Source: Desulfocapsa sulfexigens DSM 10523 (lineage in GTDB: Bacteria; Desulfobacterota; Desulfobulbia; Desulfobulbales; Desulfocapsaceae). Taken from it: a DNA stretch of 32,000 nt. Location of the stretch: positions 2,250,001-2,282,000 of the forward strand of contig NC_020304.1 of the NCBI RefSeq assembly GCF_000341395.1, read 5' to 3'. The notes below the pieces were generated by a model. That model saw only the letters and a program-made list of their open reading frames with translations. It ran no database searches and was not told the DNA's origin. Below are positions 3-24,502 of this stretch, one piece after another. Numbering within the stretch: position 1 is the first letter of the stretch; the number at the start of each line of letters is the position of its first letter. The position numbers were made by a program, and so were the translations under genes.

Positions 3-1556
3 GATAATGCCAGGGCTATTATTAGTAATTTCGGTGAAGATTTCTGGTTAGGACCTTTCACTGAAGTGCTGCTTGCGAAAGCTCCATTTTTTTCTATATT
101 TGTCGCATTATCAATAAGTAGCGGAATCCCACTTCGAGTATTGGAATTTTTGTTGTACGTGCCGTTACCATTCTTGTTTTTGTTTGCTCTTCGTCCTCTT
201 CAACTGCCTAAGTTTTTCCTCCTGTCTATCAGTATCGTGTGTTTACTGTTTATTCCTGCTGCTGGTTTGCAACTGAGGCTTGTCCGTACTACTGTATTTG
301 GTGCGATAGTGCTGTATACGCTAATTTTTATGACAGCCCTTATAGTTTATGTGGCGATGCGACAAAAAAGAATCTGGATTTGGGCTTTTTTGACGGGGGC
401 AGGTATAGGTTGTGCTGCAATGACCCGTGAAGAAGGAATCTGGCTTTTTTTTCCTGCATTAATTGCAATGACAGCAGTTTTTCTTTTCTCCAGGAAACAA
501 AAAAGAGTTATTGAAGTGATTGTACTTACACTTCTTTTAGTGGTTGGGTATCAGGTACCATTGGCTACTTTTTCTTTATTAAATTACCATTCATATGGTG
601 TGTTTTCCCCTTCTTTAAGGCAGAATCAGTCATATAAAAAATTGTACTCCACTTTAACGTCGATTGAGCCGGCTGAAAGGTCTAAGTATGTACCCTTTGC
701 TGCAAAGGCAAGACAAAGTACATATGAAATATCACCGTATTTCAGACAATTAAAACCATTTGTCGAGGGGGCGGCTGTGGACGATCTGGCAACTAATGCT
801 GAGCATCACAGGATAAGTGGCTGGGGGGAAAAACTGAATACGCGAGAGTTTTTTGTTTCGACGTTTGATTGGGCCTTGGCAAGAGCAATTTTTCTCAGTG
901 GGAGAACAACCGCCCGTGACTTTTTAGATTTCTGCGACAAGGCTACAGAGGAGATTCAATCTGCTATCCACTCGGGTGAACTCGTGGCTGGTAGTACAGG
1001 CCTGGGACTGTTACCTTCTTTGTCTGAAGGTGAAGTTTCTCAGGTCTTGTATGCTACCTACAGGTCAATACAGCTGCTGTTCTGGCCACAAGGAATTGTC
1101 CGAAAAAATAATCTCAGCACCAATCCAAATCCTGGAGTTGCTTCAAATTGGCATTCGTCACTCGGCACTTGGGCAGCTGATTCTCATGTCCTCGGCGAGC
1201 GTTTTTCAGATATTGTGTTTAATCGTTTTGTGGTCAATCTTTTTAAAGTGAGCTATGGAATAACCTTTGTACTCGGAATAATTGCTCTTGTATTTTTACT
1301 TCGCAAAGAGAAACGGCAAGGGGTGATACTTTTAGCAGTAATGACAGCTTCTGCAGGAGGAGTGATTGCTTTTAGTGTTGTTATGGGAGTTATGGATACT
1401 ATTGCCTGGTCTATATTAGAACAGGTTGGGAGTTACAATATTATAGGACAATTCCCACTACATTTTTTATTCTTGATTTCAGTTGTTGCCATCCTGCATT
1501 GTTTTGAGGTTTTTCGATCAGAAAAGCTTGTTACAGAGAAGGAAATATCTGTTTAG
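3..1556 (+). CDS. Polytopic membrane protein, possibly a GT-C-fold (ArnT/PMT-like) glycosyltransferase; the 5' end lies outside the window
   Basis: The frame is open from nt 3, with no stop before the GTG at 66 used by the ORF track (DNARAIISNFGEDFWLGPFTEV...), so the gene is cut by the window edge. It has about 6 hydrophobic helices, a hydrophilic domain of about 210 aa, then 3-4 C-terminal helices. It lies on the same strand as wzt, 170 nt upstream. The family call is from architecture only. Confidence 0.5.
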   Translation, partial: DNARAIISNFGEDFWLGPFTEVLLAKAPFFSIFVALSISSGIPLRVLEFLLYVPLPFLFLFALRPLQLPKFFLLSISIVCLLFIPAAGLQLRLVRTTVFGAIVLYTLIFMTALIVYVAMRQKRIWIWAFLTGAGIGCAAMTREEGIWLFFPALIAMTAVFLFSRKQKRVIEVIVLTLLLVVGYQVPLATFSLLNYHSYGVFSPSLRQNQSYKKLYSTLTSIEPAERSKYVPFAAKARQSTYEISPYFRQLKPFVEGAAVDDLATNAEHHRISGWGEKLNTREFFVSTFDWALARAIFLSGRTTARDFLDFCDKATEEIQSAIHSGELVAGSTGLGLLPSLSEGEVSQVLYATYRSIQLLFWPQGIVRKNNLSTNPNPGVASNWHSSLGTWAADSHVLGERFSDIVFNRFVVNLFKVSYGITFVLGIIALVFLLRKEKRQGVILLAVMTASAGGVIAFSVVMGVMDTIAWSILEQVGSYNIIGQFPLHFLFLISVVAILHCFEVFRSEKLVTEKEISV

Positions 1557-1728: not shown

Positions 1729-3117
1729 ATGTCTTTAAGTGATCTAGCAGTGATTGTAAATGATGTATCCAAGTGCTATCAAATTTATGAGCAGCCGGCT
1801 GATCGTCTGAAACAGATGCTGTTTCCCCCCTTGTATCAACACGTATTAAGAAAAGTATCTAAACAATATTTTTCAGAGTATTGGGCTTTGAAAAATGTCT
1901 CGTTTACTGTGGAGAAGGGTCAATCTGTAGGTATTGTGGGGAAGAATGGTGCGGGCAAGTCCACATTGTTACAGATTATATGCGGGGTTTTGTTTCCTAC
2001 CTTTGGCGGTGTTCAACTGAATGGCAGGATAGCAGCTCTTTTGGAACTCGGAACCGGTTTTAATCCTGAGTTCACAGGTGTTGAAAATATCTATCTTTAT
2101 GGTGCTATACTTGGTCTGGATAGAAATGAAATGGCTGACCGATTTGATAGGATTGCTGCATTTGCAGATATTGGTAATTATATCAACCAACCCATTAAAA
2201 CATTTTCCAGTGGTATGGTTGTGCGGCTCGCGTTTGCGGTAATTGCCCATGTAGATGCCGATATACTTGTTATTGATGAAGCTTTGGCTGTTGGGGATGC
2301 ATTCTTTCAACAAAAATGTATCCGGTTTCTTCGTTGCCATAAGGAAAAGGGTGGAACGAGTTTATTTGTAACCCACGATACATCCTCAGTAGTTACCTTA
2401 TGTGACAAGGCACTACTTCTTTTTCCGGGGAGTAGCAGAACTCCAATTTTTGGTGAGTCTGAAGATGTATGTAAACTCTATCTTGAAGATCTGTATAGTG
2501 ATCCAGAGCGAGAGAGAATCCTGCTACACCCTGATAAGTTTCAACGTAATTCCCAGGAAAAATCCCATACAAAAAAAACACTTTATGGTGATTTGACATC
2601 TTTTGATTCTATCTATGCAGTCTCCACCTTTAAGCATGGGGCAGAAGATTTTGGAAAAGGTGGGGCGGTAATTATTGATGCTGGTTTTTTTGATGATGAC
2701 GGGCATCGATTAAGTATGATTAAGGGCGAGGATACTGTTTCTTTTATTATCAAAGCAAAAATATATCGTCATATTATCTGGCCTGCTTTTGGGTTTATGC
2801 TGAAAAACAGTTTAGGTGAATATCTTTTTACAGAAGGCACAGACCAGCATTTTAGAAGCCATAAATTGGTGTTTGATGAGAATGATATTGTTGTAGCAAC
2901 ATTTTCCTTTACGATGCCGCACTTGTTTCGAGGACAATATATGATAAATGTTGCTCTTGCAGAAGGTATTGGTGATGAGCATATACAGCATCATTGGATT
3001 CATGATGCGGTACAAATAGATGTACTGTCAAGTCGCCTTATGCACGGCCACAGTGGAATGAATAATGTCAAAATGTCCATTGAAATACAGTCAGATAGTT
3101 TCAAAGGGACAATATGA
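1729..3117 (+). CDS. wzt: Polysaccharide ABC-exporter ATP-binding protein (Wzt/TagH type) with a C-terminal glycan-cap-binding-type extension
   Basis: Walker A GKNGAGKST, signature-like FSSGMVVRLAFA, Walker B ILVIDEALAVGD and H-loop FVTHD match the Wzt/TagH/KpsT pattern. A beta-rich C-terminal extension of about 190 aa (GGAVIIDAGFFDDDG...FRGQYMINVALAEG...) resembles the Wzt C-terminal carbohydrate-binding domain. I prefer the ATG at 1729 to the track's TTG at 1726; AAGGA lies about 9 nt upstream. The stop overlaps the next gene's start (ATGA at 3114-3117). Confidence 0.88.
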   Translation: MSLSDLAVIVNDVSKCYQIYEQPADRLKQMLFPPLYQHVLRKVSKQYFSEYWALKNVSFTVEKGQSVGIVGKNGAGKSTLLQIICGVLFPTFGGVQLNGRIAALLELGTGFNPEFTGVENIYLYGAILGLDRNEMADRFDRIAAFADIGNYINQPIKTFSSGMVVRLAFAVIAHVDADILVIDEALAVGDAFFQQKCIRFLRCHKEKGGTSLFVTHDTSSVVTLCDKALLLFPGSSRTPIFGESEDVCKLYLEDLYSDPERERILLHPDKFQRNSQEKSHTKKTLYGDLTSFDSIYAVSTFKHGAEDFGKGGAVIIDAGFFDDDGHRLSMIKGEDTVSFIIKAKIYRHIIWPAFGFMLKNSLGEYLFTEGTDQHFRSHKLVFDENDIVVATFSFTMPHLFRGQYMINVALAEGIGDEHIQHHWIHDAVQIDVLSSRLMHGHSGMNNVKMSIEIQSDSFKGTI

Positions 3118-6100
3118 TTATTGCATGTCGTTATGGTGATTTTGCAGTTCCTGGTGATAAGGATTTAATTGTTAACTCTTTGCGCCATTATGGAGAATGG
3201 GCTCAAGCCGAGATAGATGTTTTAGCCCACTTCATTACTGAAGGACATGTTGTCGTTGATGTTGGTGCTTTTGTTGGAACACATGCACGTGCATTCTCCA
3301 CAATGGTAGGATTGGAAGGAAAGGTACATGCTTTTGAGCCAAACACTGTCATTTATTCATTTCTTGAAGAGAATGCTGCAAATTCTTCATTCTCTAACAT
3401 CGCAGCATATCCTTTTGGGCTTAGTAGTAAAAATGAAAAAATGGCTAGTGTTAATACATGGGATGGTGCAAATCAGGGCGCATTTCGGCTAGAGAGAAAT
3501 GAAGGTGGAGATGTTGAACAAACCGTGGATGTTAAGTCATTGGATTCTTTGGGTCTGGGCGAGATTGATTTCATCAAGGCCGATGTGGAAGGCATGGAAC
3601 TTAGGGTGCTGATCGGTGGAGAAAAAACAATCGAAACATATAGGCCTGCCATTTTTATTGAAATAAATTCCCTGGAAGCGTCCTACGGTATTCTCAATTG
3701 GGCTAGGCAGCGGGATTATTTTATTTATGGGGTGATCACCTCGGCTTTTAATCCAGATAATTTTAATAGGGCTGAAAGTGATATATTTGAGCAGGCCAAA
3801 GAATGCGGTTTGTTGTTGATTCATTCTCAAAAACTCAATGAATATTGTGTTGATGTAGACCGATTGGCTTTGCCTGAAATCAAAACTGCTGATGACATAG
3901 CTCTTCTATTACTGCATAAGCCGCAGTATCCATATGAAATATTAGAGAAGCTAGCAACTGCTGAAAAATTGGGGATTGATTATCTGGCTCCGAGTCTGGT
4001 GAAAACGGTGAACGAGTTTACCCGTCGGATCACGAGCTTTGAGCAAACTTTAGGGGAGCGTGACATTCAGCTAGAAAATCTAAATAAAATTATCAGAGAA
4101 CGAGATGTTCAGCTAGAAAATATAAATAAAATTATCGGAGAGCGAGATATTCAGCTAGAAAATTTAAATAAAATTATCAGAGAACGAGATATTCAGATAG
4201 GAGATCTTGGCCAAGTTGTTGGAGAATGCAACAACCAAATAGCGAATCTTAATCAGGTTGTGAATGAATATGCCAAGCAGATGGGCAGTATAATATCATC
4301 AAAGTCCTGGATTCTTACAAAACCTCTGAGGTTTCTTGATCGCTTCGTGCGTGTGGGGGGGGGGGCATTGCCGACACTGCTCAGAAATAATCATGAACGA
4401 AAAACCAGTACATCCAGAGCTAATGATGAGGAGCGGCTACGTACTTCTGTAAAAGGGGTGTTTGATGTGTCGTTCTACCTGAAAACATATCCTGATATTG
4501 CTGCCTTGAGTGTAGATCCTCTGGATCATTTTTTAACAATAGGCTGGCAGGAAGGTCGTAATCCCAACCTGTACTTTGATACTAATTATTATCTATTGAA
4601 AAACCCTGATATTGCCATCGCTAATATCAATCCACTTCTGCATTATGTTGAGCATGGATGGCGGGAAGGGCGTAATCCAAGTAGATGTTTTGATACTAAG
4701 TATTATTTGTCTGATAATTCCGATGTCGCAGACGCTGATATCAATCCACTTCAACACTATATAGATCATGGCTCACGGGAAGGCCGTAGTTCGTATATGT
4801 TTTTTGATGAGAAATATTACCTCGAAAATAATCCAGATATTCGTTCGTCAGGAGTTAATCCTCTTATTCATTTTATGGAATTTGGTTGGCGGGAAGGGCG
4901 GTCTCCTGGGATCTATTTTGATATAAACTTTTATTTGTCCGAGAATCCAGACATTGCTGAAGCGGAAGTGAATCCTCTCATTCATTTTGTAGAATTTGGC
5001 TGGCTGGAAGGGCGCAACCCAAATCCATATTTCAACATTAATTACTATTTGTTAGAAAATTCAGCCGTAGCTGATTCAGGAATGAATCCACTGCTACATT
5101 TTATCAAACAGGGATGGCAGAATGGGTGCAACCCAAACCCCGATTTTGATGTCGATTATTATATTAATGCCTATCCAGATGCGGTTCGTTCCGGAGACAA
5201 TCCCTTACGTCACTATATTGAAACAGGTCGTTCATCTGGATATATGACATTTCCAGCGAAACAGAGAGTTAATGGTGTCGTGAAGGATACGTTTGTGAGT
5301 CATGAAAAACAAAAATATGTTTCAGAGATGATATACGATGATATCAAAAGGAGGATTAAACATTCCACGATACGAATAAAAAACACACCTCAATGTGTGA
5401 AAATCACGGAAGATACTATTGCAGACAGTATAGAGAACTTATCGTTTAATTCTTGGAGTAACCCGGAAGTTTCCATCATTATTCCAGTTTTTAACTGTTT
5501 GCAAATGTTGGTGGAATGTTTGGTTAGTATTAAAAAATATGTACGGATACCTTTTGAAATAATAATAGCTGATGATTGTTCCGACGATACAAGAATTGAA
5601 GCGATGTTTGAAAATCATCAGACAGTCAAATATATCAGGAATGAGGTTAATGTTGGTTTTTTGCGAAATGTGAACAATAGTATATCCTGTTGTTCCGGGG
5701 AGTTCATTTTCCTTCTAAACAGTGATGTACAGCTGCTGGATGATTGTGTTTCAGTATTGGTGAGTCACTTGCAAACTGATCCAGATGCCATGGTATCTGG
5801 ACCTAAAATTATCTACCCGAATGGAATTTTGCAGGAAGCTGGAGGATGTATACGTACTGATTGTTCCACCGTTATGACAGGGAATGGCCATAGTGCTGAG
5901 GACACGAGATATGGATTTAATCGTTATGTTGATTACATCTCCGGCGCATGCCTGTGTTTTGAAAAAGAGAATTTTATTTTGCTTGGTAAGTTTGACGAAA
6001 GTTACTCACCTGCTTATGCAGAGGATCTTGAGTTCTGTGCTCGTGTGATAAAAATGGGAAAAAAGGTTTTATATGTTGCTGAAACCACAATTGTTCATCG

Positions 6101-7277
6101 GCTAAGTGCATCCAGTGAGGCTGTGTCTGAAGATTTTAAAATTTATCAGTCTGCTGTCAATAAACAAAAGTTTAGAGAAGGATATAGTACGTTTTTCAAA
6201 AAAGAAAATCGGATCAAACCGATTGCTTTTTATTTGCCACAGTTTCACTCTATTAAAGAAAATAATTACTGGTGGGGGGAAGGATATACTGAATGGAGAG
6301 AAGTTGCGAACGCTCGGCCTCTTTTCCATCACCATTATCAGCCTCATATTCCTGCTGATCTCGGGTTCTATGATCTCGATACCCACAAAGGGATTTTTGA
6401 AAAACAAGCGGCACTGGCTAGACGGTATGGCATACATGGATTTTGTTTCTACTATTATAATTTTGGTAACTTTGAGTTACTTGAAAAACCACTTGAGCGT
6501 TTTCTTCGGTCAGAAGCTGATATACAATTCTGCCTTTGCTGGGCAAATGAAAATTGGACACGAACCTGGGATGGGAGAGAAAATGATATTTTGTGTAAGC
6601 AAAATGAAGATGCTGATGGGAATTTTTTGGGTGTTCTAAAGGGGATGGAGCGTTATGTTCACGATAGCCGATATGTTACGGTTGATAAGAAACCGCTTGT
6701 TCTTATTTATCGAGCAGAGCTGATTGGAAACATTAGGAATGTGACTCGGTCATGGCGTAAGTATTGGAAAGATAAATATAAAGGTGAACTGTATCTGTGC
6801 CTGGTTGACAGTATGGGACGTTCTTCAGGATCAAGTATCTCCCCGGAGGAGTTAGGGTTTGATGCTGCTGTGGAGTTTCCTGTACACCATGTCAATAACA
6901 CTTCAAAGCTTAAGATATCTGATGAACTGGAAAATGTTCGATTTGAAGGGATGTCGTACGATTATACTGATGCCGTTGTGGAAATATGTTCCAGGAAGCA
7001 CCCTGGTTATAAACGGTTTCCTGGAGTATTTCCTTCATGGGATAATACCCCTCGAAGAGGTAATACTTCAACCGTTTTTCGTAATGCTCATCCTAGCTCG
7101 TTCCAAGTGTTTCTTGAGAATAAATGTGAGGAGGCAAAGCTCTATAGTCGTGATGAACGACTTCTTTTTGTTAATGCCTGGAATGAGTGGGGGGAAGGTG
7201 CTCACCTGGAACCTGACATTGAATACGGTCACACCTGGTTACAGGTTATAGAAAAAGTAGTGAGAGAGAACCAATAA
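3114..7277 (+). CDS. 1387-aa multidomain glycan assembly protein: FkbM-family methyltransferase, coiled coil, 7 x 38-aa repeats, GT2 glycosyltransferase, WbsX-like domain
   Basis: The N-terminal part has VVDVGAFVGTHARAFS, FEPN and IDFIKADVEGMELRVLIGG (FkbM methyltransferase pattern). Residues ~296-400 are heptad-patterned (ERDIQLENLNKIIR x3 and following) and end in SKSWILTKPLRF. Residues 450-710 are seven NPLxH(Y/F)xxxGWxEGRxP repeats. Residues ~785-1010 carry VSIIIPVFN...IIIADDCSDD...LLNSDV (GT2). Residues ~1036-1387 carry IAFYLPQFHSIKENNYWWGEGYTEW (WbsX-like family). It is a single uninterrupted ORF, translationally coupled to wzt. Confidence 0.85.
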   Translation: MIIACRYGDFAVPGDKDLIVNSLRHYGEWAQAEIDVLAHFITEGHVVVDVGAFVGTHARAFSTMVGLEGKVHAFEPNTVIYSFLEENAANSSFSNIAAYPFGLSSKNEKMASVNTWDGANQGAFRLERNEGGDVEQTVDVKSLDSLGLGEIDFIKADVEGMELRVLIGGEKTIETYRPAIFIEINSLEASYGILNWARQRDYFIYGVITSAFNPDNFNRAESDIFEQAKECGLLLIHSQKLNEYCVDVDRLALPEIKTADDIALLLLHKPQYPYEILEKLATAEKLGIDYLAPSLVKTVNEFTRRITSFEQTLGERDIQLENLNKIIRERDVQLENINKIIGERDIQLENLNKIIRERDIQIGDLGQVVGECNNQIANLNQVVNEYAKQMGSIISSKSWILTKPLRFLDRFVRVGGGALPTLLRNNHERKTSTSRANDEERLRTSVKGVFDVSFYLKTYPDIAALSVDPLDHFLTIGWQEGRNPNLYFDTNYYLLKNPDIAIANINPLLHYVEHGWREGRNPSRCFDTKYYLSDNSDVADADINPLQHYIDHGSREGRSSYMFFDEKYYLENNPDIRSSGVNPLIHFMEFGWREGRSPGIYFDINFYLSENPDIAEAEVNPLIHFVEFGWLEGRNPNPYFNINYYLLENSAVADSGMNPLLHFIKQGWQNGCNPNPDFDVDYYINAYPDAVRSGDNPLRHYIETGRSSGYMTFPAKQRVNGVVKDTFVSHEKQKYVSEMIYDDIKRRIKHSTIRIKNTPQCVKITEDTIADSIENLSFNSWSNPEVSIIIPVFNCLQMLVECLVSIKKYVRIPFEIIIADDCSDDTRIEAMFENHQTVKYIRNEVNVGFLRNVNNSISCCSGEFIFLLNSDVQLLDDCVSVLVSHLQTDPDAMVSGPKIIYPNGILQEAGGCIRTDCSTVMTGNGHSAEDTRYGFNRYVDYISGACLCFEKENFILLGKFDESYSPAYAEDLEFCARVIKMGKKVLYVAETTIVHRLSASSEAVSEDFKIYQSAVNKQKFREGYSTFFKKENRIKPIAFYLPQFHSIKENNYWWGEGYTEWREVANARPLFHHHYQPHIPADLGFYDLDTHKGIFEKQAALARRYGIHGFCFYYYNFGNFELLEKPLERFLRSEADIQFCLCWANENWTRTWDGRENDILCKQNEDADGNFLGVLKGMERYVHDSRYVTVDKKPLVLIYRAELIGNIRNVTRSWRKYWKDKYKGELYLCLVDSMGRSSGSSISPEELGFDAAVEFPVHHVNNTSKLKISDELENVRFEGMSYDYTDAVVEICSRKHPGYKRFPGVFPSWDNTPRRGNTSTVFRNAHPSSFQVFLENKCEEAKLYSRDERLLFVNAWNEWGEGAHLEPDIEYGHTWLQVIEKVVRENQ
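4056..4265 (+). repeat. In-frame 42-bp (14-codon, two-heptad) tandem repeat: three near-identical units plus two degenerate units
   Basis: The units are 4056-4097, 4098-4139 and 4140-4181 (ERDIQLENLNKIIR / ERDVQLENINKIIG / ERDIQLENLNKIIR, differing at only a few nucleotides). Units 4182-4223 and 4224-4265 have decayed (ERDIQIGDLGQVVG, ECNNQIANLNQVVN). Read directly from the sequence. Confidence 0.92.
4355..4365 (+). repeat. G11 homopolymeric tract inside the coding sequence
   Basis: The sequence cgt gtg ggg ggg ggg gca (R V G G G A) gives eleven consecutive G. Other G runs I noticed in this window are 6 nt (near 820, 6274, 7189). Confidence 0.95.
4461..5243 (+). repeat. Seven tandem 114-bp (38-aa) coding repeats, the last one truncated to 33 aa
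   Basis: The unit consensus is FDxxYYLxxNPDIAxAxxNPLxH(Y/F)xxxGWxEGRNPxxY. The boundaries fall at an exact 38-aa period from F450. Confidence 0.9.
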
Positions 7278-8444
7278 ATGACAATTTGTGTATTTGGACA
7301 TCCTTATTCTTCTCTAGGTACAGGAGAACAGTTGGCATCATTCTCGCGCTCACTTGACGTTTGCCATGTCGAACATAAATTATTTGATATTTATGGTAGC
7401 AGCGCATGTGATAAGGGTATCATTCGTCCGTGGCTCAAGGAAAAAGAAACAAAGGATCCGGGGTACGGTGACATCCGAATATTTCATATAAATGGAGACG
7501 AAATAATACCATGTATGAAACATTTGGAAGACAAGGGGTTTGATTTTTCTGCAGGTAGCAAAAATATCATCATTCCTGCTTGGGAACTTCCGATATTTCC
7601 TGAAATATGGAGAGAAGGGATTAATCGATTTGATGAGGTCTGGGCACTCTCGCATTATATGGAAAAAATGCTTTCAGGCTGGACCAGTGGAGCCGTAAGG
7701 TATGTCGGACAATCAGCTGAGAGGCAAAATGGAATCCTCTATCCCCGAAAATACTTTGGTATTAAAAATTCTTCCCTTGTCTTTCTTTCCTTTTTTGATC
7801 AGTCATCATATGTCGGAAGAAAAAATCCGACAGCACTCTTGGATTTTTATAAAATATTAAGAAAAACCCATCCATTCAGTGATTTTCAACTGGTGATCAA
7901 GGCAAAGAATATTGATTCGAACAGTTCGCTTGAAATTGAAATAATCGATGAAAATGTTCTCTTGATAAATGGTAATTTAAGTTACCATGAAATGACATCA
8001 CTTCTTGATTCTTCAGATGTTTTTGTCTCTTTGCACCGTGCTGAAGGGTTTGGCAGAGGTGGAGCCGAGGCCGTTCTTCGTCAAAGGCGTGCCATTGTCA
8101 CAAACTATTCTGGTGTTGAAGATTATTCTGCTGACCCAGCTGTCTTGCCCGTTGGGTATGATTTGGTACCAGTTAAAGAAGGAGAGTATCCTTATCATGA
8201 GGGGCAGGTATGGGCTGAACCTCGAATGAGTGATGCCGTAAAACATGCCAGTAAACTCATTAATGACTATGAGCGAGGTTTTACAAACAGCTGTTTTTTT
8301 GACAAGGAGGAAAATGCAGGGGAAATTGTTCGTAGAGTGGCTTCTAGTTTTAGTGTTGGGGTGAATGTAATTAAAAACCTGAACAAGACTAAAGGTCCTG
8401 TATCTGGTTGTGCCAAGAGATATGCGCATTTGCATGACTCGTAA
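7278..8444 (+). CDS. GT4-family (GT-B fold) glycosyltransferase
   Basis: The C-terminal half has RKNP...VIKAK...SDVFVSLHRAEGFGRGGAEAVLRQRRAIVTNYSG, which includes an E-x7-E motif. The ATG directly follows the TAA of the upstream gene (TAAATG). Confidence 0.72.
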   Translation: MTICVFGHPYSSLGTGEQLASFSRSLDVCHVEHKLFDIYGSSACDKGIIRPWLKEKETKDPGYGDIRIFHINGDEIIPCMKHLEDKGFDFSAGSKNIIIPAWELPIFPEIWREGINRFDEVWALSHYMEKMLSGWTSGAVRYVGQSAERQNGILYPRKYFGIKNSSLVFLSFFDQSSYVGRKNPTALLDFYKILRKTHPFSDFQLVIKAKNIDSNSSLEIEIIDENVLLINGNLSYHEMTSLLDSSDVFVSLHRAEGFGRGGAEAVLRQRRAIVTNYSGVEDYSADPAVLPVGYDLVPVKEGEYPYHEGQVWAEPRMSDAVKHASKLINDYERGFTNSCFFDKEENAGEIVRRVASSFSVGVNVIKNLNKTKGPVSGCAKRYAHLHDS

Positions 8445-13701: not shown

Positions 13702-15141
13702 TTAGCTGTTTTTTTGACTAACAAGATAGGAAAGAAAATTTTTAGCACCTCGTAATTTACAATAGAGGTCTGTTTTACTTCTGGCTGAAAGGAGAAATTT
13801 TAATATGTATGAAGGTCGGAAATAAAATTTCTTTAATCCACGATCAGTGCTTTCCTGAATGAATTGACTACTCAAGCCAGGATACTCAATAACCGCCGAT
13901 TGTTCTCCGTCAGTTAGCCACTGGTCCCAGCTGGTCGCTTGGAGAAGACCGTTATCTTTGCATATTTGAAAAAATTGAGTTCCGGGAAATGGCACTGCCG
14001 CTGAAAACTGGACCGAATGTAACCCCAGGTTACAGGCAAAATCAAGGGTTGTGTTGATGCTATCCCTGGTTTCACCAGGGAGTCCAAGCACAAAGCAACC
14101 ATGTACATCCAGGCCGGTTTTATGGGCCAGGGACATGAAATGGCGAGCATTGGCAACTGATTCTCTTTTGTTCATGGTCGCCAGCATATCATCGCTTCCA
14201 GATTCAAAACCAACCAGGAGTTCTCGACAGCCAGCTTTTTTGAGTATCTGGAAAAGTTCTTTGTCTCCGGTGTCTGTTCTGGCATTTACTGAAAAGGTTA
14301 TTTTCAGTTTCCGGCGTAAGATTTCTTCACAGATTGCCATAGCATTAGCTTTGTTGATGGTAAATGTGTCATCTTCGAAAAAGAATTCACCGCCTTTGAC
14401 CACCTGTGGACAGATTTCAATGTCATGCTCAATCTCATCAACAACCTTTTCCGGCAATCTGAGACGAACCTGGTGGCCATGCATAACTTCCGGCCAAAGA
14501 CAGAAGATACATGTGTGTGGGCAGCCTCTACCTGAAAATATATCAATGTACGGATGCAGTTTCAGACCATCAAAATATTTCATCAGGTCAAGCTGATGCC
14601 ATGCCGGAAAGGGGAGAGAGTCCAGATCCTGGATGAGTTGCCTTTTTTCGGTTCTTTGCGGTGTACCATCTTTCAGATAACAGATACCGGCAATGTCATC
14701 GAGAATTGGATAATTTGCAATAACATCCCTAATTGTCAGATCATATTCACCAATGCATATGACATCTACGGCTCCATTACTCAGGAGAAGTGTTTCTTCG
14801 GGCAGAGCGGAGCAATGTGGTCCAACCATTAGAATTTTGGCATCACTTACTTCTTTACAGATTCTTGCACATTCAATATCAGAGAAAATTGAGGGAGTGG
14901 TGGAGTCCAGGACAATAAAATCAGGCTGGCCATTTTTTACCAGCAAGCGCAGATCGTCTTTTTGAAGGTTTTCTGCCGGAAAATCAAAAAGTTTTGCCGT
15001 AATTCCTTCTTGTTCAAGCACAGCAGTGCCGTAGGCAAGCCAGTCAGGTGCCCGTAAAACACGACCTCGTGTCCTGGCTGCCCAGCGTTGTGATCTGTTG
15101 AAATTTTTAACAAATGGTTCGTTGATGAGAAATACTTTCAT
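13702..15141 (-). CDS. B12-binding-domain radical SAM enzyme (class B)
   Basis: An N-terminal Rossmann-like B12-binding-type region (KVFLINEP...FIVLDSTTPS...KILMVGPHCSALPEE) is followed by the radical SAM cluster motif GRGCPHTCIFC (CxxxCxxC). Confidence 0.85.
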   Translation of the reverse strand: MKVFLINEPFVKNFNRSQRWAARTRGRVLRAPDWLAYGTAVLEQEGITAKLFDFPAENLQKDDLRLLVKNGQPDFIVLDSTTPSIFSDIECARICKEVSDAKILMVGPHCSALPEETLLLSNGAVDVICIGEYDLTIRDVIANYPILDDIAGICYLKDGTPQRTEKRQLIQDLDSLPFPAWHQLDLMKYFDGLKLHPYIDIFSGRGCPHTCIFCLWPEVMHGHQVRLRLPEKVVDEIEHDIEICPQVVKGGEFFFEDDTFTINKANAMAICEEILRRKLKITFSVNARTDTGDKELFQILKKAGCRELLVGFESGSDDMLATMNKRESVANARHFMSLAHKTGLDVHGCFVLGLPGETRDSINTTLDFACNLGLHSVQFSAAVPFPGTQFFQICKDNGLLQATSWDQWLTDGEQSAVIEYPGLSSQFIQESTDRGLKKFYFRPSYILKFLLSARSKTDLYCKLRGAKNFLSYLVSQKNS

Positions 15142-17195: not shown

Positions 17196-18917
17196 TCAGT
17201 CCGGTCGAAGAATGTGGATGGAACCATCATTGCCGATAAAGCGTGAAAAGGGAAATTCTTTTACAACCTGATAGTGAGGGAGGGGACCAAGTGTTATGAG
17301 ATATTTTTCTTCGTTTACCCACCACCAGCTATGTTTTTTTCTATTGTAATCTATTGTATTGGTATCAGAACAGAAATAACCATTAAATTCAAATCCTCCA
17401 TCGATCTCGCATGGATTAACCTGGATGTCGTAAAGAAGATAAGCATGAGCTTGATGGAGACTGCGTTTTGCAGACATGAAATCCTTAACACCAAAAATAC
17501 TTGTTCCAGCAAGGAAGAGAAGAATTGCTGTGGAAAGAATGATTTGGAGAAATGTGGGCTTAGTTTTTGTGACAGTTATTTGTTTTGTGAACCAAATAAG
17601 TAATAAGGCACATAGTGGTATAAGATAGCGGTCATGAAATCCTGTCAACAGGATAATCCCTGCATATATAAAAGAACAGATTAAGGCGAAGGAAGAAGTA
17701 AAACAGGTGTCATGATTATGTTTCTCCCTATCAGTGGAAAATAAGCATTTAACTGATTTAAGAGAAAACAAGAGGAGGATCATGGCGGAAAGGAGTGCGA
17801 CGAAAGCTAAAAGAAAAAAGAACGGTTTGGGTAAGGATATAGTTCTTTGAATATCCAATAGATAGATGTCTTTTAGTAGGAGTGGCCCAATGCCAAAGTC
17901 ATAAATGACATTTCTATGGAAGTTTATGGGAGGGTTGATGAGTCCACCCATAAGACATACTTCAAAGAGTACAAAGGAGGATAGGAGTAAAATGAATATC
18001 CTTCGGTTCTTTTTCCAACCTAACAGCTTGTGGCGGTATAAAACAACAAGAGGCGATAGCAGAAACCCTGTGTACATGAGCACTATCCCTGCCTGAGAGA
18101 AAAGAAAGAAGAGATAGTCTGGAAATCCTTTGCTTTGGGGGGCAGAGAAAATTTTCTTAAACACTGAATGACTGGTGATGGGTGTAGAACCACTTTGCCA
18201 GAGAAATACTTCGTACAGAATCCATGGTATTATGGTAATGCCGAAGGTCAGCAGGAGCATCTTTTTCTTATTCAGGTGCTTGCCACTGGGGTGAAGAAGA
18301 CAGGTGATGAGAAAACCTAAGGGAATGACTATGCCGATTTGGCGGGTAAGAATTGAGAATAATGCGAAAAAAAGACCTGAAATAAGTAAAATATGGCTAT
18401 GTTCTTCAATGCCCATATGGAGCAACAGAAATGATGAAATGAGTAGGAAAAGAAACGTAATATCAGACATGAAGGTGAAGCTTTGCGAAAGAAACAGCGG
18501 GTTTAATATAAGTACGAGTGTAGCCAGGAGAGATAGCCACAGGGAATTTTTCATCTGTCGCAGCAGCAGAAGGAGAGCGAAAGAAGATCCAATTGCCAGA
18601 ACGAGAACAGATATTCTAAGTATTGTTACAGAAAAGCCAAAGCATGTGGAAAAAAGCAGACCCCATAGTACATGACATAAAACGGAAGGTCCACCGTCAC
18701 CCCAACCTGTCGCAGTTACATTTTTTCCATCCAGCAGTGTTTCAACGATGCGAACAAAGCACCAGTCATCGTTAACCATGAATTCACCGACCGGACTGAT
18801 AAAGAGTACAATGCCTCCCCAAAGGCTGAGGAGGATGGTAATAGCAACGAAGAACAGTTGTCTCTGGTTTGGAGTGTGATTTGCGAGTGATGAGTGACCA
18901 AGGTTTTTTTCAAGCAT
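17196..18917 (-). CDS. GT-C-fold polytopic membrane glycosyltransferase (ArnT/PMT/GT39-like)
   Basis: It has about 13 hydrophobic helices, an acidic motif in the first extracytoplasmic loop (EFMVNDDWCF) and a soluble C-terminal domain of ~100 aa. It is flanked by Dpm1-like GT2 genes. Confidence 0.68.
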   Translation of the reverse strand: MLEKNLGHSSLANHTPNQRQLFFVAITILLSLWGGIVLFISPVGEFMVNDDWCFVRIVETLLDGKNVTATGWGDGGPSVLCHVLWGLLFSTCFGFSVTILRISVLVLAIGSSFALLLLLRQMKNSLWLSLLATLVLILNPLFLSQSFTFMSDITFLFLLISSFLLLHMGIEEHSHILLISGLFFALFSILTRQIGIVIPLGFLITCLLHPSGKHLNKKKMLLLTFGITIIPWILYEVFLWQSGSTPITSHSVFKKIFSAPQSKGFPDYLFFLFSQAGIVLMYTGFLLSPLVVLYRHKLLGWKKNRRIFILLLSSFVLFEVCLMGGLINPPINFHRNVIYDFGIGPLLLKDIYLLDIQRTISLPKPFFFLLAFVALLSAMILLLFSLKSVKCLFSTDREKHNHDTCFTSSFALICSFIYAGIILLTGFHDRYLIPLCALLLIWFTKQITVTKTKPTFLQIILSTAILLFLAGTSIFGVKDFMSAKRSLHQAHAYLLYDIQVNPCEIDGGFEFNGYFCSDTNTIDYNRKKHSWWWVNEEKYLITLGPLPHYQVVKEFPFSRFIGNDGSIHILRPD

Positions 18918-18964: not shown

Positions 18965-20338
18965 CTAAATACGTTTTATTTTGGTAAAGATTTTTTTTAG
19001 ACCATTTTTGTGGAGTAAAATTGAAACTTGCTGGAGGAGTCGTTGGGGCCTTGTGTAAAATTTGAGATAGGCTTGAGATTTCAACTGCTCAATTTTTCTG
19101 GGGAGGACATTCATATGTTCAGGAGAATAATTACAAGCACGATAATAATCAAAATCAGTAAATTGACCTGAAAGCAACTTTTTTTCACTTGCATAGAGAT
19201 GTGTTCCTGGGAAAGGAGTCAAAATACTGAAGGAGACATCATCTATGGGAAGCTTGCATGCAAAACGAATTGTCTCTTGTAAGTCGTCGAGCGTTTCAGA
19301 TGGATGTCCAAGGATAAAATATCCCTGTACCTTCAACTTGAGTTTTTTTGCAATATTCACAGCTTCTATGATCTGTTTGGTGCTGATTTTCTTATTATAG
19401 ACAGTGCCTAGTAATCTGTCGGAGGAAGATTCCATGCCGATGTTTATCTTTCTTAATCCAGCTGCATACATTTTTTCTAAAAGTGCAGCGTCTATATTGT
19501 CGGCTCGTAAATTACAGCACCATCTGAAGTTCATTTCACTCTCGATTAACAGTGAACAGATTCTTTCTGCCCAGACTTTATCTATCATGAATGTGTCATC
19601 TTCAAACATAAACGCATTTATGGAGTATCTCTTTTTTAATAAGTGTAGTTCTTCAATGATGTTCTCGGGCGCCCGCTTCCTGATTTTTTTGCCAAACAGG
19701 TTTGTTAATGTTGGCTGACAAAAACTGCAATTGTAGGGACATCCACGAGATATGATAAGGGATGTTCCTGTAAGGTTTGGAGACACGGTGTCCATACTGT
19801 TCCATATCTTAATATATTCCGACATATTAAAATGGGATCGGTCGGGTGCGGGGAGGCTGTCGATGTCAGTATAGGTCGACCTGCGTTCGTTGGAGATAAT
19901 CTGGCCATTCTCTCTGTATATTAAATTGGCTACTTTTGCAGGAGAATCCAGATTTATCAGTAATTCATAAAATGCCTCTTCACCTTCTCCCTGTATTACC
20001 ATGTCAACGTGAGGATCAGACATGCAGAGTTCTGGAAGAACTGTCGGGTGTGGTCCACCAAAGATGATTTTGGCTGATTGATCCTTTGATTTTATTAAGG
20101 CGGCCATTTCATGTGCATCACCCGCCATAGTTGTCATCACCGAAAAACCAATCAGAGTATATTGGGAGAAGTCATAGGAAGAAATATTTTTGTTGTTTTC
20201 TGTCTCAAAAGTGGCGTCATAGACATCAATAGAGAGATCGGGGAGCTTCATTTTCAGGAATGAAATAATGGATCCCAGTCCCAGAGGAGGCTGTCCTGAC
20301 GGATATTTAAAGCGTGGATAAATCAGGAGTATTTTCAT
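18965..20338 (-). CDS. B12-binding-domain radical SAM enzyme (class B)
   Basis: An N-terminal B12-binding-type region (MKILLIYPRF...LIGFSVMTT...KIIFGGPHPTVLPE) is followed by SRGCPYNCSFC (CxxxCxxC). I prefer the ATG at 20338 to the track's TTG at 20344. It lies 2 nt after the TGA of the upstream GT2 gene, or overlaps it by 4 nt if the TTG is used. Confidence 0.85.
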   Translation of the reverse strand: MKILLIYPRFKYPSGQPPLGLGSIISFLKMKLPDLSIDVYDATFETENNKNISSYDFSQYTLIGFSVMTTMAGDAHEMAALIKSKDQSAKIIFGGPHPTVLPELCMSDPHVDMVIQGEGEEAFYELLINLDSPAKVANLIYRENGQIISNERRSTYTDIDSLPAPDRSHFNMSEYIKIWNSMDTVSPNLTGTSLIISRGCPYNCSFCQPTLTNLFGKKIRKRAPENIIEELHLLKKRYSINAFMFEDDTFMIDKVWAERICSLLIESEMNFRWCCNLRADNIDAALLEKMYAAGLRKINIGMESSSDRLLGTVYNKKISTKQIIEAVNIAKKLKLKVQGYFILGHPSETLDDLQETIRFACKLPIDDVSFSILTPFPGTHLYASEKKLLSGQFTDFDYYRACNYSPEHMNVLPRKIEQLKSQAYLKFYTRPQRLLQQVSILLHKNGLKKIFTKIKRI

Positions 20339-20340
20339 GG

Positions 20341-21084
20341 TCAAGGCTTACGCAACAGGGACTTGATTTTGAACTTAAATAAATCAAACCCAACATTGAT
20401 CGGATCGCTTAGCGGGCGAAATTTTGAATCAAAATTGTTTTCCCAGGTTATGGGTACTTCTTTTATACGATACTTTCTCTTTTTTGCGATACAGAGGAGT
20501 TCTGGGTCAAAACCAAAACGGCATATTGTCAGTTCAGGAAATATTTGTTGGGCGCATTCTGCTGTAAAGGCCTTAAATCCACATTGGGAATCTTGAATAT
20601 CTGGCAACAGGAGCCATCTGACAATATATCCAAAGAGTTTGCCCATCCGGTCTCTGACAAAATTCTGTGGGATTGTTTTTTGAGAGTTGGCCAGTGCACG
20701 CGATCCAATTGCTATATCATAATCTTCTTTCAGAAGAGCTTGTGCCATCTTTTCATACTCATCTATAGGAGTAGACAGGTCTGCGTCAGTAAAGAGGCGT
20801 ATTTCTCCGTTTGCATGGAGCATTCCCCGTTTAATTGAATACCCTTTGCCCCTGTTTTTGCTGTTCTGAAGAATCGTAATGGGGACAGATTGTGAAGAGC
20901 ATTCTTTTTGCAGAATAGACAGCGTATTGTCTTTTGACCCATCATCAACGATGATGAGTTCAATCCTTATTGGGCGCTGGGAAAAATACGTGCTGATATC
21001 TTGAATGGTTTGTTGAATTCGATTTTGTTCATTGTATGTCGGGATGATCACGCTTAACAAGTAGTTGTCTTCTTTGATAAACAT
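20341..21084 (-). CDS. Small GT2 glycosyltransferase (polyprenyl/dolichyl-phosphate hexosyltransferase-like, Dpm1/Alg5 type)
   Basis: Motifs LLSVIIPTYNEQNRI...ELIIVDDGSKDNT...RLFTDADLSTP (DAD). It is the first gene of the 7-gene minus-strand operon. Confidence 0.85.
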   Translation of the reverse strand: MFIKEDNYLLSVIIPTYNEQNRIQQTIQDISTYFSQRPIRIELIIVDDGSKDNTLSILQKECSSQSVPITILQNSKNRGKGYSIKRGMLHANGEIRLFTDADLSTPIDEYEKMAQALLKEDYDIAIGSRALANSQKTIPQNFVRDRMGKLFGYIVRWLLLPDIQDSQCGFKAFTAECAQQIFPELTICRFGFDPELLCIAKKRKYRIKEVPITWENNFDSKFRPLSDPINVGFDLFKFKIKSLLRKP

Positions 21085-24457: not shown

Positions 24458-24502
24458 GTAATGTGTTATCAGTGATACTTTAAAATAAACTGTGTGTATA
24501 CA

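What the first reader, a model, noticed from the sequence alone, without database searches (positions are those of the whole stretch)
4355..4365. G11 homopolymer inside the megaprotein ORF: candidate slipped-strand phase-variation switch
An 11-nt G run in an AT-rich window stands out; the other G runs I noticed are 6 nt. It sits exactly between the methyltransferase/coiled-coil half and the repeat/GT2/WbsX half. By my reading, losing one G gives a stop about 28 codons later (TAA near 4449), and gaining one G gives a stop about 7 codons later (TAA near 4388). Either change would leave a truncated methyltransferase-coiled-coil protein and remove all glycosyltransferase modules. Poly-G tracts of this length in surface-glycan genes are the classic contingency loci of Campylobacter, Neisseria and Haemophilus. 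I am not aware of such switches being established in this kind of organism (one with DVU0298-like genes and many anaerobic radical SAM enzymes). The tract is also a hotspot for sequencing error, so the true length needs confirmation.
Basis: partly seen in the sequence, partly recalled or inferred. Interest (0 to 1): 0.65.

Follow-up and report, generated by a model that had tools for sequence, protein, structure and literature searches.

The report
Poly-G run in glycan gene linker
A real run of eleven G's sits in the unconserved hinge of a giant O-polysaccharide assembly enzyme, where a one-base slip would cut off its sugar-adding half, but none of the sequences I could compare shows it being used as an on/off switch, so it is most likely an ordinary, recently arisen mutational hot spot.

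Summary
The G11 run at 4355-4365 is real. It is the only G/C run longer than 6 nt in the window, and about 0.007 are expected by composition. It lies in frame (GTG GGG GGG GGG GCA = V-G-G-G-A, codons 414-418) in a 1387-aa ORF. That ORF reads FkbM methyltransferase, ~100-residue coiled coil, linker, ~38-aa repeats, GT2, WbsX, and is translationally coupled to wzt. This matches a terminator/ruler/polymerase protein of the ABC-transporter O-polysaccharide pathway. The frameshift predictions hold: -1G gives 445 aa, +1G gives 425 aa.

The switch interpretation is not supported by comparison:
- The closest relative (99% identical; one MAG and two Logan contigs read) has G9AA across the same 11 nt, in frame.
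- The 58-61% orthologues are fused and full length, with no run and no Gly3.
- No truncated product exists among ~15 billion public proteins.
- No other long G/C tract occurs in this 32-kb glycan cluster.
- The tract sits 30% into the gene.

The window is very probably from Desulfocapsa sulfexigens DSM 10523. That genome was sequenced by 454 without Illumina, so the exact run length is weakly determined, although frame and spacing support 11.

Best reading: an incidental, slippage-prone Gly3 hinge tract. An adaptive contingency locus remains possible (~0.12).

The parts
4355..4365 (+). G11 homopolymer. It covers the third base of Val414 (GTG), Gly415-417 (GGG GGG GGG) and the first base of Ala418 (GCA).
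   Evidence: The 99% relative has GGGGGGGGGAA here.
3114..7277 (+). 1387-aa ORF: a multidomain protein with a chain-terminating methyltransferase, a coiled-coil ruler and polymerase glycosyltransferases.
   Evidence: Full-length fused orthologues are P0001, P0002 and P0003.
3258..3677 (+). FkbM-type methyltransferase domain (aa 49-188).
   Evidence: PF05050, E = 1.6e-15.
3990..4298 (+). Predicted long single helix or coiled coil (aa 293-395).
   Evidence: AlphaFold2 helix. Block-mean pLDDT is 86-95 over about aa 306-385. 14-residue repeats are seen.
4065..4200 (+). 42-bp (14-aa) tandem repeat, 3.2 copies, inside the coiled coil.
   Evidence: TRF, 90% matches. P0003 lacks 14 aa here.
4299..4334 (+). 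Conserved post-coil motif SKSWILTKPLRF (aa 396-407).
   Evidence: Invariant S398, W399, T402, K403, P404, L405, R406 and F407 among the orthologues. An SW.xT.P.R-type motif occurs in 50 of the 112 retrieved proteins, window protein included.
4335..4457 (+). Poorly conserved interdomain linker (aa 408-448) that contains the tract.
   Evidence: Few invariant columns. pLDDT below 50. The linker has the same length in four orthologues, but the sequence is free to vary.
4388..4390 (+). TAA stop reached after a +1G (or -2G) frameshift.
   Evidence: and the sequence.
4450..4452 (+). TAA stop reached after a -1G (or +2G) frameshift.
   Evidence: and the sequence.
4452..4469 (+). SD-like AAAGGGG followed by in-frame GTG codons at 4458 and 4467. 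These are possible re-initiation sites for the C-terminal half and are probably fortuitous.
   Evidence: The arrangement is not conserved in L006 or L007.
4458..5243 (+). Six or seven ~38-aa repeats (FDxxYYLxxNPD...NPLxHYxxxGWxEGRNP) with no Pfam match.
5463..6185 (+). GT2 glycosyltransferase module (aa 784-1024).
   Evidence: PF00535 and PF13641.
6222..7250 (+). WbsX glycosyltransferase module (aa 1037-1379).
   Evidence: PF14307, E = 2.4e-122.
1729..3117 (+). wzt: ABC-transporter ATPase with a C-terminal Wzt_C carbohydrate-binding domain. Its stop overlaps the ORF start (ATGA).
7278..8444 (+). Downstream GT1-like gene. Its ATG directly abuts the TAA stop of the ORF.

Best explanation
**What it is.** The G11 run is a genuine but incidental coding homopolymer. 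It encodes a Gly-Gly-Gly hinge in the unconstrained linker that joins two modules of a single-polypeptide O-polysaccharide assembly enzyme. The first module is the terminator plus ruler (FkbM methyltransferase, ~100-residue coiled coil and the conserved SKSWxxTKPLRF motif). The second is the polymerase (repeats, GT2 and WbsX).

**How it arose.** It arose recently in the Desulfocapsa sulfexigens lineage, by base substitutions in linker DNA that was already G-rich. The orthologue L006 has CGT GGT GAG CGG at this place, the 99% relative has G9AA, and the window has G11. It persists because the linker sequence is not under selection.

**What it does.** Like any G11 run it must be a slippage hot spot, so +1/-1 mutants should arise more often than ordinary mutations do. 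These mutants would keep the methyltransferase and coiled coil and lose both glycosyltransferase modules. They would probably also lose the translationally coupled downstream gene through polarity. Such mutants would lack this polysaccharide.

**Shown versus inferred.** Shown: the tract, its frame, the truncations, the domain architecture, and the lack of conservation and of length variation. Inferred: that slippage is elevated, and that OFF mutants are selected against rather than exploited.
For: **Tract and frame.**

**Architecture and operon context.**
- Pfam domains and a Wzt with its carbohydrate-binding domain.
- Overlapping or abutting stop and start codons at both gene junctions.
- The long-helix prediction, with a low-confidence linker after it.
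- The same architecture is described for Klebsiella O12 WbbB and O7 ORF6 (PMC11231755).

**The reading frame is used across the tract.**
- Three orthologues are full length and colinear.
- Between the window and L003, pN/pS downstream of the tract is 0.12, from 16 synonymous and 7 non-synonymous changes.

**Recent origin by substitution.**
- L003, L004 and L005 have G9AA in the same 11 nt. That gene differs from the window at 35 of 4164 positions and has no indel.
- L006 and L007 have no run.
- Gly3 after the conserved motif occurs in only 2 of 50 proteins carrying the motif, both from this lineage.

**No OFF alleles.** The exact truncated products are absent from the ~15-billion-protein collection, and no high-identity short hits appear.

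**No other tracts.** No G/C run of 7 nt or more occurs elsewhere in the 32 kb.

**Composition alone.** About 0.85 such runs are predicted per 4-Mb genome.
Against: - G/C runs are the most mutable and the most strongly avoided repeat type in prokaryotic coding DNA (PMC3315296). An 11-mer that survives in a 4-kb gene is therefore not entirely trivial.
- It lies in the class of gene (surface glycan synthesis) where contingency loci are typical.
- The relative's G9 is itself within the range that switches in Campylobacter, where the modal tract length is 9 (PMC3401435).
- Three consecutive GGG codons are unlikely under local codon usage. GGG is 19% of Gly codons, so 0.19^3 is about 0.7%.
- Only two independent lineages could be compared, and no read-level data were available.
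Confidence: 0.62

Rival explanations
1. It is an adaptive contingency locus. Slipped-strand mispairing at G11 reversibly switches the enzyme, and so this O-polysaccharide, ON and OFF at high frequency. That would be bet-hedging against, for example, glycan-binding phages or grazers in marine sediment.
For: - Tract length and position give clean truncations in both shifted frames.
- The gene class fits.
- The tract is an outlier in the window.
- The closest relative also carries a long G9 run.
- Poly-G tracts in glycosyltransferase genes that are present in some strains and absent in others are known switches, for example pgtA (PMC2193922). In Campylobacter, lengthening a tract from G8 to G11 raises mutability ten-fold (PMC3401435).
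Against: - There is no length polymorphism. The two lineages differ by substitutions within an identical 11-nt span, and both are ON.
- No OFF product appears in public data.
- The tract is not conserved in orthologues.
- It is the only tract in a 32-kb glycan cluster.
- It lies 30% into the ORF, whereas phase-variable species enrich repeats near N-termini (PMC3315296).
- A text search for Desulfocapsaceae together with phase variation returned nothing, and a search for Desulfovibrio with slipped-strand or homopolymer terms listed no paper that mentions Desulfovibrio.
Confidence: 0.12
2. It is a homopolymer length miscall. The deposited G11 is not the true length. The true tract could be another in-frame length (G8 or G14), or an out-of-frame length that 454 consensus calling happened to round to 11.
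For: - The window protein is identical to one carried on a 3,986,761-bp contig. That is the published chromosome size of Desulfocapsa sulfexigens SB164P1.
- That genome was sequenced with 454 GS FLX Titanium at 31x plus 1.1x Sanger, with no Illumina (PMC3739170).
- From general knowledge, pyrosequencing is least reliable at long homopolymers.
Against: - G11 gives an ORF colinear with three full-length orthologues.
- The tract occupies exactly the same number of bases as G9AA in the independently assembled relative.
- Independent Logan assemblies of the same strain match the window at 9038 of 9038 contig bases. These cover 6,180 window positions and include 18 homopolymers of 6-7 nt. They do not cover the tract itself.
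Confidence: 0.07
3. It is a dosage device rather than an ON/OFF switch. Slippage at the tract, at the DNA, RNA-polymerase or ribosome level, produces a fraction of free methyltransferase/coiled-coil terminator. In the -1 allele, re-initiation at GTG 4458 or 4467 would also give a separate polymerase. This would change the terminator:polymerase stoichiometry and so the polysaccharide chain length.
For: - The tract lies exactly at the junction of two modules that exist as separate proteins elsewhere. Alteromonas lipolytica has a stand-alone 902-aa repeat-GT2-WbsX protein whose residue 42 aligns with window residue 439.
- Relatives of the Klebsiella O7 terminator are described as sometimes ending after the coiled coil (PMC11231755).
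- The -1 stop (4450-4452) is followed by an SD-like AAAGGGG and in-frame GTG codons.
Against: - The SD/GTG arrangement follows from the codons for K-G-V and is not conserved in L006 or L007.
- No internal promoter signal exceeds chance.
- From general knowledge, transcriptional slippage is documented mainly for A/T runs.
- There are no data on the proteins themselves.
Confidence: 0.04

Closest known systems
Campylobacter jejuni polyG/C phase-variable glycan genes (for example cj1139, the capsule and LOS loci)
   Same: A G/C homopolymer of 8-11 nt sits inside a glycan-biosynthesis ORF, and +1/-1 slippage truncates the enzyme.
   Different: C. jejuni has a couple of dozen such tracts per 1.6-Mb genome, by my recollection, many of them in glycan loci. 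It shows length polymorphism between and within strains and has measured switching rates (PMC3401435). Here there is a single tract in 32 kb, no length variation, no conservation and no rate data. The organism is a free-living marine sulfur disproportionator.
Neisseria gonorrhoeae pgtA poly-G tract
   Same: A poly-G run in a glycosyltransferase gene is present in some strains, while others lack it and express the gene constitutively (PMC2193922). The window (G11) and the relative (G9AA) compare in a similar way.
   Different: Switching of pgtA and its clinical correlation were demonstrated experimentally. Here the relative's tract is only shortened (still G9), and no OFF allele is known.
Klebsiella pneumoniae O12 WbbB and O7 ORF6 (single-polypeptide terminator, coiled-coil ruler and polymerase)
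   Same: The architecture matches: an N-terminal terminating enzyme, an extended coiled coil, then C-terminal GT modules, next to a Wzt carrying a carbohydrate-binding domain (PMC11231755).
   Different: The terminator here is an FkbM-type methyltransferase with no recognised kinase. The polymerase half carries ~38-aa repeats plus GT2 and WbsX. No biochemistry exists. Homology to WbbB or ORF6 themselves was not tested.
E. coli O9a / K. pneumoniae O3 WbdD with WbdA
   Same: A methyltransferase terminator with a coiled-coil ruler. A frameshift at the tract would leave a WbdD-like stand-alone terminator.
   Different: In O9a the polymerase is a separate protein recruited to WbdD. Here the two are fused, and the fusion is conserved in the orthologues.
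Homopolymeric tracts as general gene-inactivation sites (the poly(A) tract of Listeria inlA; Orsi et al. 2010, PMC2831843)
   Same: A coding homopolymer gives frequent frameshift truncation.
   Different: Those tracts are A/T and lie near the 5' end. This one is G and lies mid-gene, at a domain junction.

Membership tests
SSR (homopolymer) contingency locus / localized-hypermutation phase variation | G/C homopolymer long enough to slip (about 8 nt or more) | tested here: met
   G11 at 4355-4365.
SSR (homopolymer) contingency locus / localized-hypermutation phase variation | A +1/-1 length change abolishes or alters expression of a defined product | tested here: met
   -1G gives 445 aa and +1G gives 425 aa. 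Both lack GT2 and WbsX.
SSR (homopolymer) contingency locus / localized-hypermutation phase variation | Tract-length polymorphism, including OFF alleles, among strains or within populations | tested here: not met
   The window has G11 and L003, L004 and L005 have G9AA, over the same 11-nt span, all in frame. The six predicted OFF products are absent from the ~15-billion-protein collection. The sample is small (two lineages).
SSR (homopolymer) contingency locus / localized-hypermutation phase variation | The repeat tract is conserved at the locus across related strains and species | tested here: not met
   It is present only in the 99% relative, in interrupted form. It is absent from the 58-61% orthologues, and no G run of 7 nt or more occurs in the 51% orthologue's gene.
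SSR (homopolymer) contingency locus / localized-hypermutation phase variation | Multiple such loci in the genome (a phasome) | tested here: inconclusive
   There is no other G/C run of 7 nt or more in the 32-kb window.
SSR (homopolymer) contingency locus / localized-hypermutation phase variation | Tract near the 5' end of the ORF or in the promoter | tested here: not met
   The tract is at codon 415 of 1387 (30%). See PMC3315296 for the N-terminal enrichment seen in phase-variable species.
SSR (homopolymer) contingency locus / localized-hypermutation phase variation | Measured high-frequency, reversible switching | not testable with these tools
   This needs read pile-ups, colony amplicons or reporter fusions.
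Coiled-coil terminator/polymerase proteins of ABC-transporter-dependent O-polysaccharide assembly (WbdD, WbbB, Kp O7 ORF6 type) | Terminating enzyme domain at the end of the protein distal to the polymerase | tested here: met
   The FkbM methyltransferase domain is at aa 49-188. Activity was not tested.
Coiled-coil terminator/polymerase proteins of ABC-transporter-dependent O-polysaccharide assembly (WbdD, WbbB, Kp O7 ORF6 type) | Extended coiled coil separating the terminator from the polymerase | tested here: met
   AlphaFold2 predicts a single helix over residues 293-395, with block-mean pLDDT 86-95 over about 306-385. 14-residue repeats are present. The oligomeric state was not tested.
Coiled-coil terminator/polymerase proteins of ABC-transporter-dependent O-polysaccharide assembly (WbdD, WbbB, Kp O7 ORF6 type) | Polymerising GT modules on the same protein or recruited to it | tested here: met
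   GT2 (784-1024) and WbsX (1037-1379) lie on the same polypeptide.
Coiled-coil terminator/polymerase proteins of ABC-transporter-dependent O-polysaccharide assembly (WbdD, WbbB, Kp O7 ORF6 type) | Cognate Wzm/Wzt exporter in which Wzt carries a terminus-recognising carbohydrate-binding module | tested here: inconclusive
   A Wzt with ABC_tran plus Wzt_C lies immediately upstream, with an overlapping stop and start. No Wzm permease was recognised, and the upstream 566-aa protein has no Pfam hit.

The most novel reading that the evidence does not exclude
The G11 run is a working contingency locus in a free-living, sulfur-disproportionating marine member of the Desulfobulbales. Slippage toggles a single-polypeptide O-polysaccharide terminator/ruler/polymerase between three states. 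In the fused state (G11) it is fully active. In the split state (G10) a stand-alone terminator is made and the polymerase is re-initiated at GTG 4458 or 4467. In the null state (G12) the polymerase is lost. Surface glycan presence or chain length would then vary stochastically, for example as a defence against phages.
Probability: 0.1. Interest if true: 0.55.

Novelty: new member of a known kind. Interest (0 to 1): 0.25.

Why it matters
If the tract did switch, it would extend homopolymer-driven phase variation of surface glycans from host-adapted pathogens to an environmental anaerobe. It would also provide a natural genetic toggle between the 'fused' and 'separate' layouts of terminator and polymerase that are currently compared only across species.

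As things stand, the main practical value is a caution. The length of this homopolymer rests on 454 data. The tract is a likely source of spontaneous rough (polysaccharide-less) variants in cultures of the strain. Annotators should not read a switch into a single tract without population data.

Tried and rejected
1. An exact look-up of the window protein and of Wzt in public assemblies found nothing on record for either. The window's own genome appears to be withheld.
2. The neighbouring gene led to Logan contigs of the same strain, SRR25712206 and SRR25712207. They are 100% identical to the window, but they start at 4981 and 5718, inside the repeat module, so they do not cover the tract.
I used exact cluster look-up instead, and all six were absent.
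4. A JGI metagenome scan for both flanks with a variable gap of 5-20 nt found no match.
5. A second metagenome scan, with an alignment of the N-terminal and linker region, found a best relative at only 43% identity. It gave no intermediate lineages with which to trace the tract.
6. The genome-contig scan gave a best hit in a Desulfocapsaceae MAG at 51% identity. The window genome itself was not returned.
7. Internal promoter or terminator near the tract: nothing above the shuffled expectation for promoters, and only one weak 5-bp-stem terminator-like site.
8. An internal restart (SD plus GTG) as a designed feature was rejected as probably fortuitous, because it is not conserved in L006 or L007.
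9. Gly3 as a conserved structural hinge of the family was rejected. Only this lineage has it, 2 of 50 motif-bearing proteins.
10. Literature searches for phase variation in Desulfocapsaceae or Desulfovibrio gave no relevant paper.
Full report
**Observation**

The window reads ...CGT GTG GGG GGG GGG GCA TTG... with eleven consecutive G's at 4355-4365. All other G or C runs of 6 nt or more are exactly 6 nt long (eight G6, two C6). The run-length spectrum falls about four- to five-fold per added base and then jumps to 11.

A first-order Markov model of the window predicts about 0.006 G runs of 11 or more, plus 0.0008 for C. In 100 dinucleotide-preserving shuffles, 2 matched the observed count of G9 words. 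The tract is therefore an outlier for the window. The same model predicts about 0.85 such runs in a 3.99-Mb chromosome of this local composition, so one tract per genome is not remarkable on composition alone.

**What the tract sits in**

It lies in frame in a 1387-aa ORF at 3114-7277. The parts of the protein are:
- Pfam finds an FkbM methyltransferase domain (aa 49-188), a GT2 module (784-1024) and a WbsX glycosyltransferase module (1037-1379).
- AlphaFold2, run on residues 196-470, predicts one continuous helix over residues 293-395. Block-mean pLDDT is 86-95 over about 306-385 and below 50 from 396 to 470.
- The helix contains a 42-bp (14-aa) tandem repeat.
- A conserved motif, SKSWILTKPLRF (396-407), follows the helix. 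An SW.xT.P.R-type motif is present in 50 of the 112 retrieved proteins.
- Next comes a poorly conserved linker (408-448) containing Gly415-417.
- Six or seven ~38-aa repeats follow.

The gene upstream encodes a Wzt ABC-transporter ATPase with the Wzt_C carbohydrate-binding domain, and its stop overlaps the ORF's start (ATGA). The next glycosyltransferase gene starts on the base after the ORF's stop. The rest of the window is a large glycan cluster of GT1, GT2 and GT4-type genes, B12/radical-SAM enzymes and an O-antigen-ligase-like protein.

This is the layout described for coiled-coil 'molecular ruler' proteins of ABC-transporter-dependent O-polysaccharide assembly. In particular it matches the single-polypeptide terminator-ruler-polymerase forms, Klebsiella O12 WbbB and O7 ORF6 (PMC11231755). 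That is an architectural match. I did not test homology to those proteins, and no Wzm permease was recognised.

**Frameshift consequences**

- Losing one G gives a 445-aa product that ends at TAA 4450-4452.
- Gaining one G gives a 425-aa product that ends at TAA 4388-4390.

Both products keep the methyltransferase and the coiled coil and lose every glycosyltransferase module.

The tract lies at a true module boundary. Alteromonas lipolytica encodes a stand-alone 902-aa repeat-GT2-WbsX protein whose residue 42 aligns with window residue 439. Many Alphaproteobacteria match only residues ~440-1386.

After the -1 stop there is an SD-like AAAGGGG and in-frame GTG codons at 4458 and 4467. This arrangement follows from the codons for K-G-V and is not conserved in the orthologues. 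I therefore treat re-initiation as speculative.

**Comparative evidence**

A search of 5.8 billion protein clusters found three full-length fused orthologues and no other close relative.
- P0001 is 99% identical. It occurs in NCBI MAG GCA_975001335.1 and in Logan assemblies of SRR27205363 and SRR27205365.
- Its gene differs from the window at 35 of 4164 positions and has no indel.
- At the tract it reads GTG GGG GGG GGA ACA, that is G9AA. This is the same 11-nt span, the same frame and the same Gly-Gly-Gly.
- P0002 (61% identical) and P0003 (58%) are fused and colinear. Their linker has the same length but no G run of 6 nt or more anywhere in the gene and no Gly3. L006 has CGT GGT GAG CGG CAA CCG here, and L007 has CTT GAC TGG AAG ATG GTA.

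So the run arose recently, in linker DNA that was already G-rich. The two known alleles differ by two adjacent substitutions at the run's 3' edge and not by slippage. From general knowledge, substitutions that convert the base next to a run into the run's base are the expected product of transient misalignment. I cannot tell which allele is ancestral.

Between the two close lineages, pN/pS is 0.12 downstream of the tract, from 16 synonymous and 7 non-synonymous changes. Frame 0 beyond the tract has therefore been under purifying selection.

I looked for OFF alleles in three ways.
- The exact products expected for G9, G10, G12 and G13 in the window strain, and for G8AA and G10AA in the relative, are not among ~15 billion public proteins.
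- No short, high-identity hit appeared.
- Two JGI metagenome scans found neither the flanks nor any close relative.

The power of all this is low, because there are only two lineages and all the data are consensus assemblies.

**Source and sequence quality**

The window protein is 100% identical to a database protein carried on a 3,986,761-bp contig. That is the published chromosome size of Desulfocapsa sulfexigens SB164P1 (DSM 10523) (PMC3739170). The nearest genome hit is a Desulfocapsaceae MAG.

That genome was finished from 454 GS FLX Titanium data at 31x plus 1.1x Sanger, without Illumina. The length of an 11-mer homopolymer is therefore its weakest kind of base call.

Three things argue against a miscall.
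- G11 gives an ORF colinear with all orthologues.
- It occupies exactly as many bases as G9AA in the independently assembled relative.
- Two Logan contigs of the same strain match the window without a single mismatch over 9,038 contig bases. These cover 6,180 window positions and include 18 homopolymers of 6-7 nt. They do not reach the tract.

**Interpretation**

The tract meets the structural criteria for a slipped-strand switch: its length, its position inside an ORF, clean truncation in both shifted frames, and the gene class. It fails or cannot be scored on the criteria that separate an evolved contingency locus from an accidental homopolymer.
- There is no length polymorphism.
- The tract is not conserved.
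- There is no companion tract in a 32-kb glycan cluster.
- It is mid-gene rather than 5'-proximal.
- There are no rate data.

Surveys show three relevant things. Indel variability rises steeply with run length. G/C runs are the most mutable and the most avoided repeat type. Species that use phase variation enrich repeats near N-termini (PMC3315296). In Campylobacter the modal tract length is 9, and going from G8 to G11 raises mutability ten-fold (PMC3401435).

I therefore conclude that the tract is very probably a real mutational hot spot, and that it will throw off polysaccharide-negative frameshift variants. Its most likely status is an incidental Gly3-hinge homopolymer tolerated in an unconstrained linker (confidence about 0.62). 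The rivals are:
- an adaptive ON/OFF contingency locus (about 0.12);
- a homopolymer miscall (about 0.07);
- a stoichiometry or 'fused versus split' device (about 0.04).

The remainder is unassigned.

**Verdict**

The feature is a previously undescribed instance of a well-known kind, a hypermutable coding homopolymer in a glycan gene, and it has modest interest (0.25). Read-level analysis of existing SRA runs of the same strain would settle the question cheaply.

Noticed in passing
window 4065-4200: A 42-bp (14-aa, two heptads) tandem repeat, 3.2 copies at 90% identity, lies inside the predicted coiled-coil 'ruler'. The orthologue P0003 lacks exactly 14 aa here. In-frame gain or loss of copies could change the ruler length, and so the polysaccharide chain length.
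   Followed up: partly
window ~4458-5243: Six or seven ~38-aa repeats (FDxxYYLxxNPD..NPLxHYxxxGWxEGRNP) lie between the linker and the GT2 module, with no Pfam match. The window and P0001 carry one more copy (38 aa) than P0002 and P0003. Both Logan contigs of the same strain begin inside this region, at 4981 and 5718.
   Followed up: partly
L008:11465-11467 (codon 489 of the orthologue at L008:10001-14038): The Desulfocapsaceae MAG orthologue (51% identical) has a single in-frame TAA in the repeat module but is otherwise one continuous frame. This could be a pseudogene, a natural split or a MAG error.
   Followed up: no
L007:18294-18302: A G9 run lies inside a 196-aa ORF (17831-18421) that has only marginal LpoB and TolB_N Pfam hits, in the genome that carries orthologue P0003. 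It is a second long G run among the roughly 100 kb of related DNA examined.
   Followed up: partly
window 66-1556 and L003:6743-8443: The gene directly upstream of wzt encodes a 566-aa protein with no Pfam hit. No recognisable Wzm (ABC-2 permease) partner for Wzt was found in the window.
   Followed up: partly
window 13702-15141, 18965-20344, 25733-27157 (all on the minus strand) and 24494-25720 (+): Three B12-binding radical-SAM enzymes and one SPASM radical-SAM enzyme are interspersed with glycosyltransferases. This suggests unusual (for example C-methylated) sugar modifications in this glycan.
   Followed up: no
window 3114-3117 and 7275-7280: There is an ATGA stop/start overlap between wzt and the large ORF, and TAA directly abuts ATG at the junction with the next GT gene. 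The three genes are probably translationally coupled, so a frameshift at the tract would probably be polar on the downstream gene.
   Followed up: partly
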